This document shows positions 52,745 to 64,000 of a stretch of 64,000 nt of DNA, piece by piece (position 1 is the stretch's first letter; each line of letters starts with the position of its first letter). The position numbers and the translations under genes are program-made. The DNA lies in sequence record MN850614.1, one strand, 5' to 3'. The notes beneath the pieces were generated by a model that did not search any database, had not been told where the DNA came from, and saw only the letters and a program-made list of their open reading frames with translations. Source of the DNA: Escherichia phage adrianh.

Positions 52745-60760
<8,016 letters not shown>

Positions 60761-60762
60761 TA

Positions 60763-61911
60763 ATGGCAGTAGGTGAAATTCAAATTAGTGCCTTGCCTCA
60801 AGCAGCCTTACCAATTGACCTTAGTGATATCTTCCATCTTAAACAGGGTATCGATGATAAGAGATGCACTCTTGAGCAATTACTTGCTCCACACTCAAGC
60901 CTAAGAAATAACCCTCATGGTGTTACTAAGACACAAATTGGTTTAGATAACGTTATTAATGCTCTCCAGTTAGTTGCTGAAAATAACTTATCAGACATTG
61001 TTAATGTAGCTGAGGCAAGAGCAAATCTACAGATTATGTCTTCAGAAGAGGTTAATAATCTTATTCAACAACATATTGATGATAAGAGCAACCCACACAA
61101 TACCACTAAGGCACAGGTTGGGTTAAGTAATGTTCAGAACTGGGTGACATCTAACCTTTATAACGAGGATGCAGATAAGTATGCTACAGCAAGAGCAGTA
61201 AATAACTTGTACAAGGCTGTTCAGGCTTCTTATCCAGTAGGTACTATCCATCTCTCTATGAATCCTGCAAACCCTTCTACATATTTAATTTGTGGAGGTA
61301 CTTGGGAGTTAGTTTCAAAAGGAAGAGCACTTGTAGGTTATGATAGTGCTTCTAGGCCAGTTGGCTCAACGTTTGGTTCGCAGACTACTGCACTGACAGT
61401 TAACAACATTCCTGCACATACTCACTCAGTATACGTCACTGGTGGTGGTCACACACACGGTGCAACGGCCTCTGTCAGTGCTTTTGACTACGGTACTAAA
61501 GGGACTACAACGTTTGACTATGGAACAAAGACTGTATCTACTTATGACTATGGTAACAGAACAACCAGTGCTGCTGGTTTAACACAAACAACATTCATTA
61601 ATCGTGGTTATGCTGATGGTGGTTGGAGAGGTTTATCAGTTGAGGGGGCAAGCTATGACCCAAGAGCTACGCTGACAACAGCTAACAACCACACTCACTC
61701 TGTAGCAATTGGTGCGCATAATCACACAGTTGGTATTGGTGCTCACAGTCATTCTGTTGCAATTGGCTCCCACAACCACTCAGCAACAGTAACAGTAACC
61801 GGAGCAGGTGAGCATTCGCACTCTGGCACAACTGGCACAACTGGTTCTGGTCAAGCATTTAGCGTTGAACAGCCATCCTTCGTATTGTATGTATGGCAGA
61901 GAACAGCTTAA
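60763..61911 (+). CDS. Tail fibre protein with HxH repeats
   Basis: 382 aa; repeated HTHS/HNHT/HSHS motifs and FDYGTK repeats in C-terminal half. Confidence 0.55.
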   Translation: MAVGEIQISALPQAALPIDLSDIFHLKQGIDDKRCTLEQLLAPHSSLRNNPHGVTKTQIGLDNVINALQLVAENNLSDIVNVAEARANLQIMSSEEVNNLIQQHIDDKSNPHNTTKAQVGLSNVQNWVTSNLYNEDADKYATARAVNNLYKAVQASYPVGTIHLSMNPANPSTYLICGGTWELVSKGRALVGYDSASRPVGSTFGSQTTALTVNNIPAHTHSVYVTGGGHTHGATASVSAFDYGTKGTTTFDYGTKTVSTYDYGNRTTSAAGLTQTTFINRGYADGGWRGLSVEGASYDPRATLTTANNHTHSVAIGAHNHTVGIGAHSHSVAIGSHNHSATVTVTGAGEHSHSGTTGTTGSGQAFSVEQPSFVLYVWQRTA

Positions 61912-61920
61912 TTTCTTTAC

Positions 61921-61942
61921 AGGGGCTGTATAGCCCCTTTTA
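61921..61942 (+). terminator. Rho-independent terminator
   Basis: AGGGGCT GTAT AGCCCCT then TTT. Confidence 0.5.
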
Positions 61943-61957
61943 AGAGGAAAATTTATA

Positions 61958-64000
61958 ATGGCAGATTACAAGTTGAGTGAATTAAACTCAATTGATACAA
62001 TTCGTTCAGACGACCTCCTTCATATCAGGGTTAAAAAGAGACCTGAAATGCTGGGTGATGAAGACCGTCGAATGACCTATCAAGATTTCTTAGCATCTTT
62101 TAAACTAGAAAGGTTTGTTCAGATTGCTGGTAGCACTATGACTGGTGACTTAGGGATTGTTAAGTTACTTTATGGTGGTAAGGCAGTATTTGACCCAACA
62201 GGCTCTTCTGAGATTACTATTGGGGATGTTTTAAAGACTTTTAAAATCAACGCAAATGGCCTTAAACTAACTATTGCAGATGCTTCAAGGTCGGCAACTG
62301 TTTATCATACTCTGAATAAGCCAAGTCCTAATGAACTTGGGATGAGAACTAATGAAGAGAATGATGCAAGATACTCAAGATTAGCTGCAAATAACACCTT
62401 TAGAGGTACTCAAGCTATTCTCTCTGACAATGAAGCCCTCATTGTTAAGAATATTACACAAGGGATGCCACTCTATATTCGTGGTCAAGATGCAGATGGC
62501 ACTAACAGATGGTATCTAGGCAATGATAATAAAGGCACAGACAACCTTGTTTTAAAAAACGTTAAATCTGGTGCATACGTAGCGATTTTAGCTAACCTAA
62601 TCTCTGTGAATAAATCAATTCAAATCACTGGTCAAGTTCAACCTTCTGATTGGGCTAACTTAGATGCTAGATACTTTACTCAGACAGCAGCTAATCAGAG
62701 ATTTGCGCAGTTAGCTGGTAATAACACATTTAGTGGTTTAAACACATTCAACCAACTAAGTGTTTTCAAAAAAGATGGTGAAGCAATTAGGCTACAGAAT
62801 GCCAATGCTGCACAACCATTGTACATTAAGGCGATTGATAGCACAGGTGTCAACAGATGGTACATTGGTAATAGTAACGAAGGTGATAACGTAGCTCTAG
62901 AAAACTACAAAACTAGTGGCAAGATTACTGTAGGGACAAGTGTTAATATCAATAAAACACTAACTGTAACTGGTCAAGTTCAACCTTCTGACTGGACTAA
63001 CATTGACTCTCGTTATGTTCTTATCGGTTCATACGCAAATCTTGCTAAGAAGAATGAAGCTAACACATTCACTTTACAGCAGAATATTCAATCTGATGGT
63101 GAAGCATTAAGAATCTACAGCAAGGCTCAGAATAATTCTTCTTACATTGTTGGTAAGAATACTGATAACACAAATAAGTGGTTTATCGGTTGTGGTACTA
63201 ATGGTTCTGGTACGGCATCATTCCATAACTACTTGACTGGTGCAAGACTCGATTTAGCTGACGAAGTTCTTCTGTCTAAATCTCTACAGATTACTGGACA
63301 GGTAAAACCTTCTGATTGGTCTAACTTAGATGCTAGATACTTCACTCAGTCAGCAGCTAATCAGAGATTCATGGTTGCAGGTTCTACAGGAGAAGCTACA
63401 GAGCAGAATGCAGATGGTGTGGCATGGAACGCTAAAACAGGCTTATATAATGTAACCTCAACAAATGCTGATTACACAGCACTTGTGTTTCAAATGTATC
63501 AGGGGGTGACCTCATCTACTGCCTGTGCGCAATTAAAGTTCCAGTATAAAAACGGTGGAATGTGGTACAGAACATCTGTAGATAGTAAAGGCTTTGAAGC
63601 TAAGTGGTCTAAGATTTACACAGAGGCTCAGAAACCAACCCCTTCAGATATTGGTGCATATACTAAAACTGAGACTGACCAGAAGATTGCGCAGGCGGTA
63701 AGTGACTCTACAGACCTTAACAAAATCTATCCAGTAGGTATTGTGACATGGTTTAACAGCAATGTTAACCCTAATACAGCACTGCCTGGTCTAACTTGGA
63801 CGTATCTGAACAACGGTGTTGGTAGAACTATCAGGGTTGCAGCAGCTAACGGTTCAGATGTTGCTACAACAGGTGGTTCAGATTCTGTGACGTTAGCTGT
63901 TGGTAACTTACCATCACACACTCACAGTTTTTCTGCTACCACTTCATCTTTTGACTACGGAACAAAAAACACTAACACGACTGGTGCTCACACCCACTCT
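61958..64000 (+). CDS. Long tail fibre protein (3' truncated by window end)
   Basis: Open frame from ATG 61958 to window end; internal QPSDWxNxDxRY repeats; HTHS and FDYGTK motifs near end; absent from track because incomplete. Confidence 0.5.
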   Translation, partial: MADYKLSELNSIDTIRSDDLLHIRVKKRPEMLGDEDRRMTYQDFLASFKLERFVQIAGSTMTGDLGIVKLLYGGKAVFDPTGSSEITIGDVLKTFKINANGLKLTIADASRSATVYHTLNKPSPNELGMRTNEENDARYSRLAANNTFRGTQAILSDNEALIVKNITQGMPLYIRGQDADGTNRWYLGNDNKGTDNLVLKNVKSGAYVAILANLISVNKSIQITGQVQPSDWANLDARYFTQTAANQRFAQLAGNNTFSGLNTFNQLSVFKKDGEAIRLQNANAAQPLYIKAIDSTGVNRWYIGNSNEGDNVALENYKTSGKITVGTSVNINKTLTVTGQVQPSDWTNIDSRYVLIGSYANLAKKNEANTFTLQQNIQSDGEALRIYSKAQNNSSYIVGKNTDNTNKWFIGCGTNGSGTASFHNYLTGARLDLADEVLLSKSLQITGQVKPSDWSNLDARYFTQSAANQRFMVAGSTGEATEQNADGVAWNAKTGLYNVTSTNADYTALVFQMYQGVTSSTACAQLKFQYKNGGMWYRTSVDSKGFEAKWSKIYTEAQKPTPSDIGAYTKTETDQKIAQAVSDSTDLNKIYPVGIVTWFNSNVNPNTALPGLTWTYLNNGVGRTIRVAAANGSDVATTGGSDSVTLAVGNLPSHTHSFSATTSSFDYGTKNTNTTGAHTHS

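What the first reader, a model, noticed from the sequence alone, without database searches (positions are those of the whole stretch)
60763..64000. Two tail fibre genes with HxH repeat motifs and FDYGTK repeats; the distal one has internal QPSDWxNxDxRY repeats
Both fibre genes end in regions rich in HTHS/HNHT/HSHS and (F/Y)DYG(T/N)(K/R) repeats. HxH repeats coordinate metal ions in the receptor-binding needle of T4-type long tail fibres. The longer fibre also contains at least four internal repeats of a QPSDW(A/S/T)N(L/I)D(A/S)RY unit, suggesting a modular, recombinogenic shaft. Two paralogous fibre tips may indicate dual receptor specificity.
Basis: partly seen in the sequence, partly recalled or inferred. 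Interest (0 to 1): 0.45.

Follow-up and report, generated by a model that had tools for sequence, protein, structure and literature searches.

The report
Felix O1-type short and long tail fibres
These are the short and long tail fibre genes of a Felix O1-like E. coli phage, both ending in a T4-style histidine-studded receptor-binding needle; this arrangement was already described by cryo-EM in 2025 for a phage whose short fibre is 98% identical, so the finding is correct but ordinary.

Summary
The window comes from a Felixounavirus (Felix O1-like myophage of E. coli).

- **Gene 1** (60763-61911, 382 aa) is 98% identical to the short tail fibre gp26 of phage Bas63.
- **Gene 2** (starts at 61958, cut by the window end after 681 of about 783 aa) is the long tail fibre, 66% identical to Bas63 gp27.
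- **Tips:** both C-termini match the crystal structure of the T4 gp37 receptor-binding tip (2XGF; E 2.6e-14 and 1.5e-17). They are 31% identical to each other.

The observation needs three corrections.
- Gene 1 has 7 HxH and 3 (F/Y)DYG units. Gene 2 shows only 2 HxH and 1 FDYGTK inside the window, because its needle is cut off; near-identical full-length relatives have 6 HxH.
- The QPSDWxNxDxRY motif occurs three times, not four or more.
- The motif marks conserved linkers between variable shaft domains.

Across 120 homologues the shaft domain cores are as variable as the receptor-binding head (42-51% versus 46% mean identity).

The fibre architecture, the HxH needles and the variable shaft were published in 2025 for Bas63 (Sci Adv) and Sf14 (Commun Biol). 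Which receptor each tip binds is still untested. Verdict: real, correctly read, already known, low interest.

The parts
60458..60760 (+). Context: LTF-platform protein (Bas63 gp25 homologue, 100 aa), the baseplate attachment point for the long fibre
   Evidence: PDB 9NDY chain S 'LTF platform protein (gp025)', E 2.5e-64 over 1-100; role as described in PMC12609058
60763..61911 (+). Short tail fibre (STF) gene, 382 aa; homologue of Bas63 gp26 and Sf14 gp52
   Evidence: 373/382 identical to Bas63 gp26; phrog_2097 tail fiber, E 5e-126; Pfam Gp10_C at aa 154-259
60763..61221 (+). STF N-terminal baseplate-binding domain and stalk (aa 1-153), including a duplicated NNPHxxTKxQ(I/V)GLxNV motif at aa 49-66 and 109-126
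   Evidence: Nearly invariant across nine Ounavirinae STFs. [quoted passage not shown]
61222..61416 (+). STF collar domain (aa 154-218)
   Evidence: Pfam Gp10_C; aligns to the collar of T4 gp37 (2XGF) and of T4 gp10 (2FKK, 5HX2)
61417..61557 (+). STF needle, descending strand (aa 219-265): HTH at 219 and 230, then three (F/Y)DYG units at 241, 251 and 261
   Evidence: Motif positions; aligned to T4 gp37 'SSFDYGTKGT'; DNA pattern matches
61558..61689 (+). STF head: the hypervariable turn-around segment (aa about 266-309) and putative receptor contact
   Evidence: The only poorly conserved block in the nine-sequence STF alignment, full of indels. The tip was reported as the variable part across the genus
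61690..61908 (+). STF needle, ascending strand (five HxH at aa 310, 319, 328, 337 and 351, mostly 9 residues apart) and conserved C-terminal return to the collar (GQAFSVEQPSFVLYVWQRTA)
   Evidence: aligned to T4 gp37 '[22 protein letters not shown]'
61958..64000 (+). Long tail fibre (LTF) gene, truncated by the window end (681 of about 783 aa); homologue of Bas63 gp27 and Sf14 gp53
   Evidence: 66% identical to Bas63 gp27; 99% (674/681) to the full-length 783-aa P0001; phrog_4277, E 0
61958..62377 (+). LTF N-terminal baseplate-binding domain and first shaft domain D0 (aa 1-140), ending in the degenerate linker KPSPNELGMRTNEENDARY
   Evidence: Mean pairwise identity 0.96 among 120 homologues
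62378..62617 (+). LTF shaft domain D1 core (aa 141-220), hypervariable
   Evidence: Pfam gp37_trimer; mean pairwise identity 0.51, 22 alleles; AF2 pLDDT about 80-85
62618..62743 (+). Linker 1 (aa 221-262) with ITGQVQPSDWANLDARY
   Evidence: 65-nt direct repeat copy at 62609-62673; mean pairwise identity 0.84
62744..62959 (+). LTF shaft domain D2 core (aa 263-334), hypervariable
   Evidence: Mean pairwise identity 0.42; 98.6% nucleotide identity to Alf5 while D1 and D3 are about 50%
62960..63073 (+). Linker 2 (aa 335-372) with VTGQVQPSDWTNIDSRY
   Evidence: Repeat copy at 62951-63015; the identity switch to Alf5 lies here
63074..63283 (+). LTF shaft domain D3 core (aa 373-442), hypervariable
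   Evidence: Mean pairwise identity 0.43, 30 alleles; 82% nucleotide identity to PC79-13 while D1 and D2 are 44%
63284..63367 (+). Linker 3 (aa 443-470) with ITGQVKPSDWSNLDARY
   Evidence: Repeat copy at 63275-63339
63368..63622 (+). LTF domain D4 (aa 471-555), resembling part of the Mu tail fibre S (Pfam gp37_C)
   Evidence: PDB 8JU3, E 9e-17; Pfam PF12604, E 1e-18; replaced by a different, longer module in HY02, SPJ41 and HP1
63623..63922 (+). LTF linker 4 (KPTPSDIGAY...) and collar domain (aa 556-655)
   Evidence: Pfam Gp10_C at aa 588-666; mean pairwise identity 0.95; aligns to the 2XGF collar
63923..64000 (+). Start of the LTF needle (aa 656-681): ends HTH-654, includes FDYGTK-665 and HTH-678; the rest of the needle and the head lie beyond the window
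   Evidence: completed from relatives ekra, P0001 and L016

Best explanation
The region encodes the two host-recognition fibres of a Felix O1-like (Felixounavirus) myophage.

**The two fibres.** Gene 1 makes the trimeric short tail fibre. Gene 2 makes the trimeric long tail fibre. Each has an N-terminal domain that plugs into the baseplate: the short fibre on a wedge protein, the long fibre on the small platform protein encoded just upstream.

**The shared tip.** Each fibre ends in the same kind of tip as the T4 long fibre protein gp37. The tip has three parts:
- a collar domain;
- a six-stranded needle, made because each of the three chains runs down and then back up;
- a small head at the turn.

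In the needle, each HxH motif from the three chains gives six histidines around one metal ion (iron in T4). The motif counts therefore predict seven sites in the short fibre and six in the long one. The (F/Y)DYG(T/N)(K/R) units lie on the descending strand and probably supply aromatic core residues where there is no metal site. The head, which is the most variable segment, contacts the receptor, most likely a lipopolysaccharide core structure.

**The long-fibre shaft.** The shaft is a chain of small beta-rich domains joined by conserved TGQVxPSDWxNxDxRY linkers. The linkers serve as structural joints. They are also stretches of DNA homology at which whole domains are exchanged between phages.

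**Shown versus inferred.**
- Shown here: gene identity, homology to the T4 tip, motif counts, the conservation pattern and domain reassortment.
- Shown by others on near-identical or related proteins: fibre lengths, attachment points, presence in the virion and LPS-core dependence.
- Inferred: metal binding, which receptor each fibre binds, the order in which the fibres act, and the role of the DYG units.
For: - Taxonomy: 96-99% nucleotide identity to Felixounavirus genomes.
- Short fibre: 373/382 identical to Bas63 gp26.
- Long fibre: 66% identical to Bas63 gp27, with a near-identical N-terminus and collar.
- Synteny: the upstream genes match PDB 9NDY wedge protein 1 and LTF platform protein.
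- Published structure: Bas63 cryo-EM shows 430 A and 630 A fibres, gp37-like tips, 7 and 6 HxH, and five repeat domains in the long fibre (PMC12609058). Both Sf14 fibres were found in virions by mass spectrometry (PMC11821841).
- T4 tip homology: 2XGF at E 2.6e-14 and 1.5e-17; 51% identity to T4 gp37 over 106 aa.
- T4 needle biology: seven iron sites, and the iron-binding histidines are essential (PMC6957217).
- Motif statistics.
- Conservation: conserved arms flank a hypervariable head.
- Domain reassortment.
- Fold search: the confident shaft domains hit the Mu fibre, T7 gp17 and T4 gp34.
- Receptor: Bas63 depends wholly on an intact LPS core (PMC8594841).
Against: - No fibre chain of this family is deposited in the PDB. 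The published fibre models are AlphaFold predictions fitted into low-resolution density.
- My monomer prediction gave pLDDT below 50 for both termini, including the whole tip, so the needle fold rests on sequence homology.
- Metal content has not been measured for any Ounavirinae fibre.
- T4 gp37 needs the chaperones gp38 and gp57A. No gp38-like gene follows the long fibre gene in relatives, and the Sf14 authors found no chaperone homologues. Folding may therefore differ from T4.
- The last ~102 residues of gene 2, including its head, are outside the window and lie in the most variable part.
- The 120 homologues used for the reassortment analysis are the best matches to this query, not an unbiased sample.
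Confidence: 0.9

Rival explanations
1. Gene 1 is not a free fibre but a baseplate structural protein of the T4 gp10 type. Its histidine-rich tail would then be an internal baseplate element.
For: The only Pfam hit of gene 1 is Gp10_C. PDB hits include T4 gp10 (2FKK, 5HX2).
Against: The gp10 match covers only the collar (aa 144-222), a domain shared by T4 gp10, gp11, gp12 and gp37. The longer and stronger match is to the gp37 tip (aa 146-352). A 98% identical protein is seen as a 430 A fibre in Bas63.
Confidence: 0.03
2. The two fibres are alternative host-range determinants. Each alone would suffice on a different host or receptor (true dual specificity, as with Mu S/S' or phages carrying two receptor-binding proteins), rather than the two being sequential parts of one adsorption pathway.
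For: The head segments of the two tips are unrelated in sequence. Both fibres are present together on virions. Both tips vary strongly and independently across the genus. [quoted passage not shown]
Against: There are no binding or knockout data for either fibre. Bas63 shows a single dependence on the LPS core. The different lengths and attachment sites resemble the T4 division of labour between long and short fibres.
Confidence: 0.3
3. The variation of the shaft domains is neutral drift in a structurally tolerant spacer. The apparent modular exchange would be a by-product of recombination aimed at the tip, and the shaft would have no role in specificity.
For: The number and length of domains are conserved: three linkers in 98 of 120 homologues and none with more. 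The Bas63 authors ascribe the variation to sequence divergence without architectural change.
Against: The cores are as divergent as the receptor-binding head (0.42-0.51 versus 0.46 mean identity), while the flanking N-terminus and collar stay at 0.95-0.96. Single cores are exchanged without their neighbours or the tip. This pattern is typical of diversifying selection.
Confidence: 0.4

Closest known systems
Bas63 (Escherichia phage JohannRWettstein) STF gp26 and LTF gp27; Sci Adv 2025, PMC12609058
   Same: Same genus and same gene order (wedge 1, LTF platform, STF, LTF). The STF is 98% identical with the same 7 HxH. The LTF has the same length class and domain plan, with a near-identical N-terminus and collar.
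   Different: The LTF shaft domains D1-D4 are a different set of alleles (66% identity overall; cores about 47-55% nucleotide identity). The tip of the window's LTF is not in the window.
Shigella phage Sf14 (Mooglevirus) gp52 and gp53; Commun Biol 2025, PMC11821841
   Same: Same two-fibre arrangement, with 430 A and 630 A fibres. Both are found in virions, and there is no separate chaperone gene.
   Different: STF 67% and LTF 54% identical in the multiple alignments. The Sf14 STF has 9 HxH and 2 DYG units, against 7 and 3 here.
T4 gp37 receptor-binding tip (PDB 2XGF)
   Same: Collar, HxH needle and FDYGTK motif are homologous. There are seven HxH in both T4 gp37 and this STF.
   Different: In T4 this tip sits on one fibre only, at the end of a four-protein long fibre, and it needs gp38 and gp57A. 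Here it caps two single-protein fibres, and no gp38-like gene follows the LTF gene. The head sequences are unrelated.
T4 gp12 short tail fibre
   Same: Likely functional analogue of the STF. It is a shorter, baseplate-bound fibre with the same collar fold and is thought to bind the LPS core (my own knowledge of T4).
   Different: No gp12 chain was among the PDB sequence matches of the STF at E <= 0.01, and no direct comparison with gp12 was run. The STF tip is of the gp37 needle type. In Bas63 the STF lies retracted along the sheath rather than folded under the baseplate.
Mu tail fibre S (PDB 8JU3, 5YVQ), T7 gp17 (4A0T) and T4 gp34 rod (5NXH)
   Same: The shaft domains resemble these. D4 matches Mu S by sequence (E 9e-17). 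D3 matches T7 gp17 weakly (E 1e-3). Foldseek on the model hits all three.
   Different: There is no significant sequence similarity to T4 gp34. TM-scores are low because the model is a monomer of a trimeric fibre.
'His-box' recombination in T-even gp37/gp38 adhesins (Tetart, Krisch and co-workers, 1990s; recalled from memory, not retrieved)
   Same: Conserved short motifs flank variable segments and serve as crossover points for swapping specificity modules.
   Different: Here the best-documented crossover motifs are the TGQVxPSDWxNxDxRY shaft linkers rather than the GxHxH boxes.

Membership tests
Ounavirinae STF/LTF pair (Bas63 gp26/gp27, Sf14 gp52/gp53) | Sequence homology over the full length to the reference proteins | tested here: met
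   STF 373/382 identical to gp26. LTF 448/683 identical to gp27 over all 681 residues available.
Ounavirinae STF/LTF pair (Bas63 gp26/gp27, Sf14 gp52/gp53) | Position directly downstream of the wedge and LTF-platform genes of the baseplate module | tested here: met
   The upstream ORFs match 9NDY wedge protein 1 (E 6e-185) and LTF platform (E 2.5e-64). The gene order is the same in Bas63, ekra, Sf14, HY02 and Alf5.
Ounavirinae STF/LTF pair (Bas63 gp26/gp27, Sf14 gp52/gp53) | The products form two sets of fibres on the virion | not testable with these tools
   Published for Bas63 (cryo-EM) and Sf14 (cryo-EM and mass spectrometry). Inferred here from 98% and 66% identity.
T4 gp37-type receptor-binding tip (collar, needle, head; PDB 2XGF) | Significant sequence similarity to the solved tip, spanning collar and needle | tested here: met
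   STF aa 146-352 versus 2XGF 18-229, E 2.6e-14. LTF relative aa 585-762 versus 23-218, E 1.5e-17. T4 gp37 51% identical over 106 aa.
T4 gp37-type receptor-binding tip (collar, needle, head; PDB 2XGF) | Several HxH motifs on both the descending and the ascending strand | tested here: met
   STF: 2 descending and 5 ascending. LTF: 2 in the window, 3 + 3 in full-length relatives, and 6 in 117 of 120 homologues.
T4 gp37-type receptor-binding tip (collar, needle, head; PDB 2XGF) | The chain reverses at a distal head, so the C-terminus returns to the collar | tested here: inconclusive
   The conservation pattern fits: conserved arms and C-terminal peptide flank a hypervariable middle. However, the AF2 monomer gave pLDDT below 50 for the tip. 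The fold-back is reported for Bas63 from fitted predictions.
T4 gp37-type receptor-binding tip (collar, needle, head; PDB 2XGF) | Octahedral coordination of iron by the HxH triplets | not testable with these tools
   Known for T4. No metal analysis exists for Ounavirinae fibres.
T4 gp37-type receptor-binding tip (collar, needle, head; PDB 2XGF) | Dedicated folding chaperone encoded next to the fibre gene (gp38 in T4) | tested here: not met
   In ekra, Sf14, HY02, Alf5, Bas63 and L016 the LTF gene is followed by a 64-aa membrane protein and a holin-like gene. The Sf14 authors found no chaperone homologues. A gp57A-like gene elsewhere in the genome was not searched for.
[quoted passage not shown] | Sequence similarity to T4 gp34 | tested here: not met
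   The best BLASTP segment has E 0.022 and covers only the 'P(S/T)xxDIGA' peptide. The shaft repeats score E > 0.5.
[quoted passage not shown] | Structural similarity of the repeat domains | tested here: inconclusive
   Foldseek hits 5NXH and 5NXF at E 2e-4, but with TM 0.10-0.14. The Mu fibre and T7 gp17 score better. The model is confident only in the D1-D4 cores. The similarity is claimed for Bas63.
Pfam PF20744 (gp37_trimer) and PF12604 (gp37_C) | Score above the curated gathering threshold | tested here: met
   gp37_trimer scores 207 bits (cut-off 21.7) in three stretches. gp37_C scores 67.6 bits (cut-off 22.5). T4 gp37 itself does not match these models, so the family name refers to another phage's gp37.

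The most novel reading that the evidence does not exclude
The hypervariable shaft domains D1-D3 (and D4) of the long fibre may not be passive spacers. They could be additional host-interacting modules, for example lateral glycan or O-antigen binding sites, or determinants of fibre retraction on the sheath. On this reading they are under diversifying selection and are exchanged as cassettes by recombination at the conserved TGQVxPSDWxNxDxRY linkers. A single fibre would then carry four or five independently swappable specificity determinants.
Probability: 0.2. Interest if true: 0.5.

Novelty: already known. Interest (0 to 1): 0.15.

Why it matters
Felix O1-like phages are widely used in Salmonella and E. 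coli diagnostics, biocontrol and therapy, and their host range is set by these two fibres. It helps host-range prediction and engineering to know which segments are fixed scaffold and which are swappable.

- **Fixed scaffold:** N-terminus, collar, HxH arms and linkers.
- **Swappable:** the two heads, shaft cores D1-D3 and D4.

For this window the result adds no new biology. It places the genes firmly within a fibre system published in 2025. It adds a quantitative description of domain reassortment in the long-fibre shaft, which the published work noted only as unexpected sequence variation.

Tried and rejected
- **Start of gene 2.** My first coordinates (61960) were out of frame. The ATG is at 61958.
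- **Fibre chains in the PDB.** The Bas63 baseplate entry 9NDY is in the PDB copy, but no STF or LTF chain turned up in the searches.
- **Missing literature.** No supplementary tables of the Bas63 paper are held. The T4 tip paper by Bartual et al. 2010 is not held, so I cited Islam et al. 2019 for the T4 facts instead.
- **Bas63 accession.** I found it by stepping through neighbouring BASEL accessions.
- **T4 gp34.** A sequence comparison with the shaft repeats gave no significant match.
- **Structure prediction.** An AlphaFold2 monomer of the full-length proxy P0001 gave mean pLDDT 55. Only the D1-D4 cores were confident, and the N-terminus and whole tip were unusable. The fold search is therefore only supportive, and I ran no further search on the STF.
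- **HxH by chance.** I considered and rejected HxH enrichment by composition alone: 0 of 5000 shuffles reach 7.
- **Gene 1 as a gp10-like baseplate protein.** I considered and rejected this reading (see rivals).
- **Intergenic hairpin.** I checked whether the hairpin between the two genes is a terminator. The consensus scan did not call it, and it folds only modestly better than shuffles.
- **Exact source genome.** The closest contig found (L016) is 99.14% identical, not the same genome. The missing C-terminus can therefore only be approximated.


Full report
**What is in the sequence**

The region holds two + strand genes. Gene 1 runs from 60763 to 61911 and encodes 382 aa. Gene 2 starts at the ATG at 61958, preceded by a ribosome-binding site (AAGAGGAAA), and runs off the window end after 681 codons.

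The 3.5 kb around them is 96-99% identical to many Felixounavirus genomes, that is, Felix O1-like myophages of E. coli, Salmonella and Shigella. In those genomes the second gene is 777-795 aa long. About 102 residues are therefore missing from the window.

**Checking the observation**

- *HxH in gene 1.* There are seven motifs, at aa 219, 230, 310, 319, 328, 337 and 351. Shuffles of the protein give a mean of 1.0 and never reach seven in 5000 trials. No other ORF of at least 100 aa in the window has more than two.
- *DYG units.* Gene 1 has three (F/Y)DYG(T/N)(K/R) units exactly ten residues apart. The degenerate coding pattern occurs four times in the 64 kb, all in these two genes, against 0.03 expected.
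- *Gene 2 in the window.* It shows only two HxH and one FDYGTK, because the window stops at the beginning of its needle. The statement that it 'ends' in such a region is true only of full-length relatives. They have six HxH in 117 of 120 homologues and always a single DYG unit.
- *The QPSDW motif.* It occurs three times (aa 228, 342 and 450; the third has K for Q), not four or more. At DNA level there are three copies of a 65-nt direct repeat, 75-82% identical and spaced 342 and 324 nt. The coding pattern matches three times against zero expected. No homologue has more than three. Two more linkers (aa 121 and 559) are only remote variants.
- *The two C-termini.* They are homologous: 36% identity over 96 aa inside the window (E 2e-10), and 31% over 235 aa when a full-length relative stands in for gene 2 (E 2e-14).

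**What the genes are**

The two ORFs upstream match chains of PDB 9NDY, the baseplate of phage Bas63. Window 59601-60458 is wedge protein 1 (E 6e-185) and 60458-60760 is the 'LTF platform protein' (E 2.5e-64). In the Bas63 genome the next two genes are bas63_0026 and bas63_0027. Gene 1 is 373/382 identical to the former. Gene 2 is 66% identical to the latter, with the N-terminal 170 residues and the collar nearly identical and the middle divergent.

The Bas63 cryo-EM paper (PMC12609058) identifies gp26 as a 430 A short tail fibre bound to wedge 2A. It identifies gp27 as a 630 A long tail fibre bound to the platform trimer. The paper states the following:
- Both fibres have a structurally conserved N-terminal baseplate-binding domain.
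- Both have a C-terminal tip like that of T4 gp37, with a collar, a six-stranded needle carrying HxH motifs, and a head.
- The short fibre has seven HxH motifs and the long one six.
- The tips, and unexpectedly the repeat domains, are the variable parts across the genus.

The Sf14 paper (PMC11821841) describes the same pair, gp52 and gp53. It detects both in virions by mass spectrometry and finds no chaperone homologues.

**Independent support from the tools**

- *Homology to the T4 tip.* Both C-termini match the crystal structure of the T4 gp37 tip. STF aa 146-352 matches 2XGF at E 2.6e-14. The LTF relative, aa 585-762, matches at E 1.5e-17. The alignments include the FDYGTK and GxHxH stretches. 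T4 gp37 is 51% identical to the LTF needle over 106 aa.
- *The collar.* It hits Pfam Gp10_C and T4 gp10 structures. This fits the collar fold shared by gp10, gp11, gp12 and gp37 (PMC6957217). The same paper confirms seven iron sites in the T4 needle. It also shows that the iron-binding histidines are essential and that the tip binds LPS and OmpC.
- *Conservation in the STF.* In an alignment of nine Ounavirinae STFs, residues 1-235 and the ascending HxH arm with the C-terminal peptide are conserved. Residues of about 255-310 are hypervariable and full of indels. This is the pattern expected if the chain turns around at a receptor-binding head.
- *Variation in unit number.* The number of DYG units (0-4) and of HxH motifs (6-9) varies between STF alleles.

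**The long-fibre shaft**

Pfam finds three gp37_trimer domains and one gp37_C domain. T4 gp37 does not match these models, so their name refers to another phage's gp37. D4 matches the Mu tail fibre S (8JU3, E 9e-17) and D3 weakly matches T7 gp17.

An AlphaFold2 monomer of the full-length proxy P0001 (674/681 identical to the window's gene 2) was confident only in four five-stranded domain cores (pLDDT 78-92). It was unusable for the termini. A Foldseek search of the PDB gave the Mu fibre, T7 gp17 and T4 gp34 as the only hits below E 1e-3, all with low TM-scores. T4 gp34 shows no significant sequence similarity.

With the N-terminal domain D0 this makes five domain-plus-linker units, which probably correspond to the five repeat domains reported for Bas63. 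The QPSDW motif therefore lies in the conserved linker, not in the domain itself.

**Is the shaft recombinogenic?**

Nucleotide identity between this window and phage Alf5 changes domain by domain:

| Segment | Identity to Alf5 |
|---|---|
| N-terminus | 95% |
| D1 core | 50% |
| D2 core | 98.6% |
| D3 core | 48% |
| Collar | 89% |

The switches fall in linkers 1 and 2. Against PC79-13, only D3 is similar (82%, against 44% for D1 and D2).

Mean pairwise amino-acid identity among the 120 best homologues shows the same contrast:

| Segment | Mean pairwise identity |
|---|---|
| N-terminus + D0 | 0.96 |
| D1 core | 0.51 |
| D2 core | 0.42 |
| D3 core | 0.43 |
| D4 | 0.59 |
| Linkers | 0.73-0.84 |
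| Collar | 0.95 |
| Head | 0.46 |

Every pair of the segments D1, D2, D3, D4 and head shows allele quartets in which all four combinations occur. There are 90 distinct five-segment combinations among the 120 proteins. The sample is biased towards relatives of this query, and no formal breakpoint test was run.

**Mechanism**

- *Best supported.* Two trimeric fibres share one tip design, stabilised by a row of metal sites. Each presents a different head to the cell surface.
- *Receptor.* Published phenotypes show that Bas63 depends wholly on an intact LPS core (PMC8594841). Felixounaviruses are generally taken to recognise LPS or O-polysaccharide moieties.
- *Untested points.* Which fibre binds what, and in what order, is not known. 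By analogy with T4, the long fibre would scan reversibly and the short fibre would lock on. This is inference.
- *A real difference from T4.* The gp37-type tip caps both fibres here. Each fibre is a single protein, and no gp38-like chaperone gene follows the long fibre gene.

**Verdict**

Two counts in the observation need correcting. Everything of substance was published in 2025 for a phage whose short fibre is 98% identical. The only addition here is a quantitative picture of cassette-like exchange of shaft domains at the conserved linkers. It leaves open the possibility that these domains contribute to specificity.

Novelty: already known. Interest: low.

Noticed in passing
window 36148-41046: A cluster of 24 tRNA genes on the + strand, with the tRNA-Met, Lys, Ser and Gln genes present twice and tRNA-Leu three times. 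My recollection, not checked here, is that Felix O1-like genomes typically carry such a cluster.
   Followed up: no
window 60907-60960 and 61087-61140: The short fibre stalk contains a duplicated motif, NNPHGVTKTQIGLDNVIN and SNPHNTTKAQVGLSNVQN (aa 49-66 and 109-126). It is invariant across Ounavirinae. It probably corresponds to the 'triple alpha helix and turn' joints described for Bas63.
   Followed up: partly
window 61921-61942: A G+C-rich hairpin (AGGGGCU-GUAU-AGCCCCU) followed by UUUU lies between the short fibre stop codon and the long fibre ribosome-binding site. It folds at -15.9 kcal/mol (z -2.0). The terminator scan did not call it. It could be a leaky terminator that sets the ratio of the two fibres.
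   Followed up: partly
L004:5223-7763, L008:5132-7567, L005:5255-7777 (HY02, SPJ41, HP1): In these relatives the Mu-S-like domain D4 of the long fibre is replaced by a different module about 60 aa longer. This is a second, non-homologous cassette at the same position.
   Followed up: no
Alignment A1 (STF of nine Ounavirinae): The needle differs in unit number between alleles: 0-4 DYG units and 6-9 HxH motifs. The Erwinia phage phiEa104 has no DYG unit at all. Needle length therefore seems to be adjustable.
   Followed up: partly
L014:19499-20647 (Bas63 GenBank record MZ501086): The GenBank record labels gp26 'long tail fiber protein', although cryo-EM shows it is the short fibre. Most relatives label both genes simply 'tail fiber protein'.
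   Followed up: yes
L001:9932-10498 and L016:6432-6992 (downstream of the long fibre gene in relatives): The long fibre gene is followed by a 64-aa membrane protein (Pfam Phage_PM2_Gpl) and a holin-like gene. There is no tail fibre assembly or chaperone gene, unlike T4 (gp38), Mu (U) or lambda (Tfa).
   Followed up: partly
Pfam PF20744 and PF12604: The families named 'gp37_trimer' and 'gp37_C' are not matched by T4 gp37 itself. The names can therefore mislead readers into assuming homology to the T4 gp37 shaft.
   Followed up: yes
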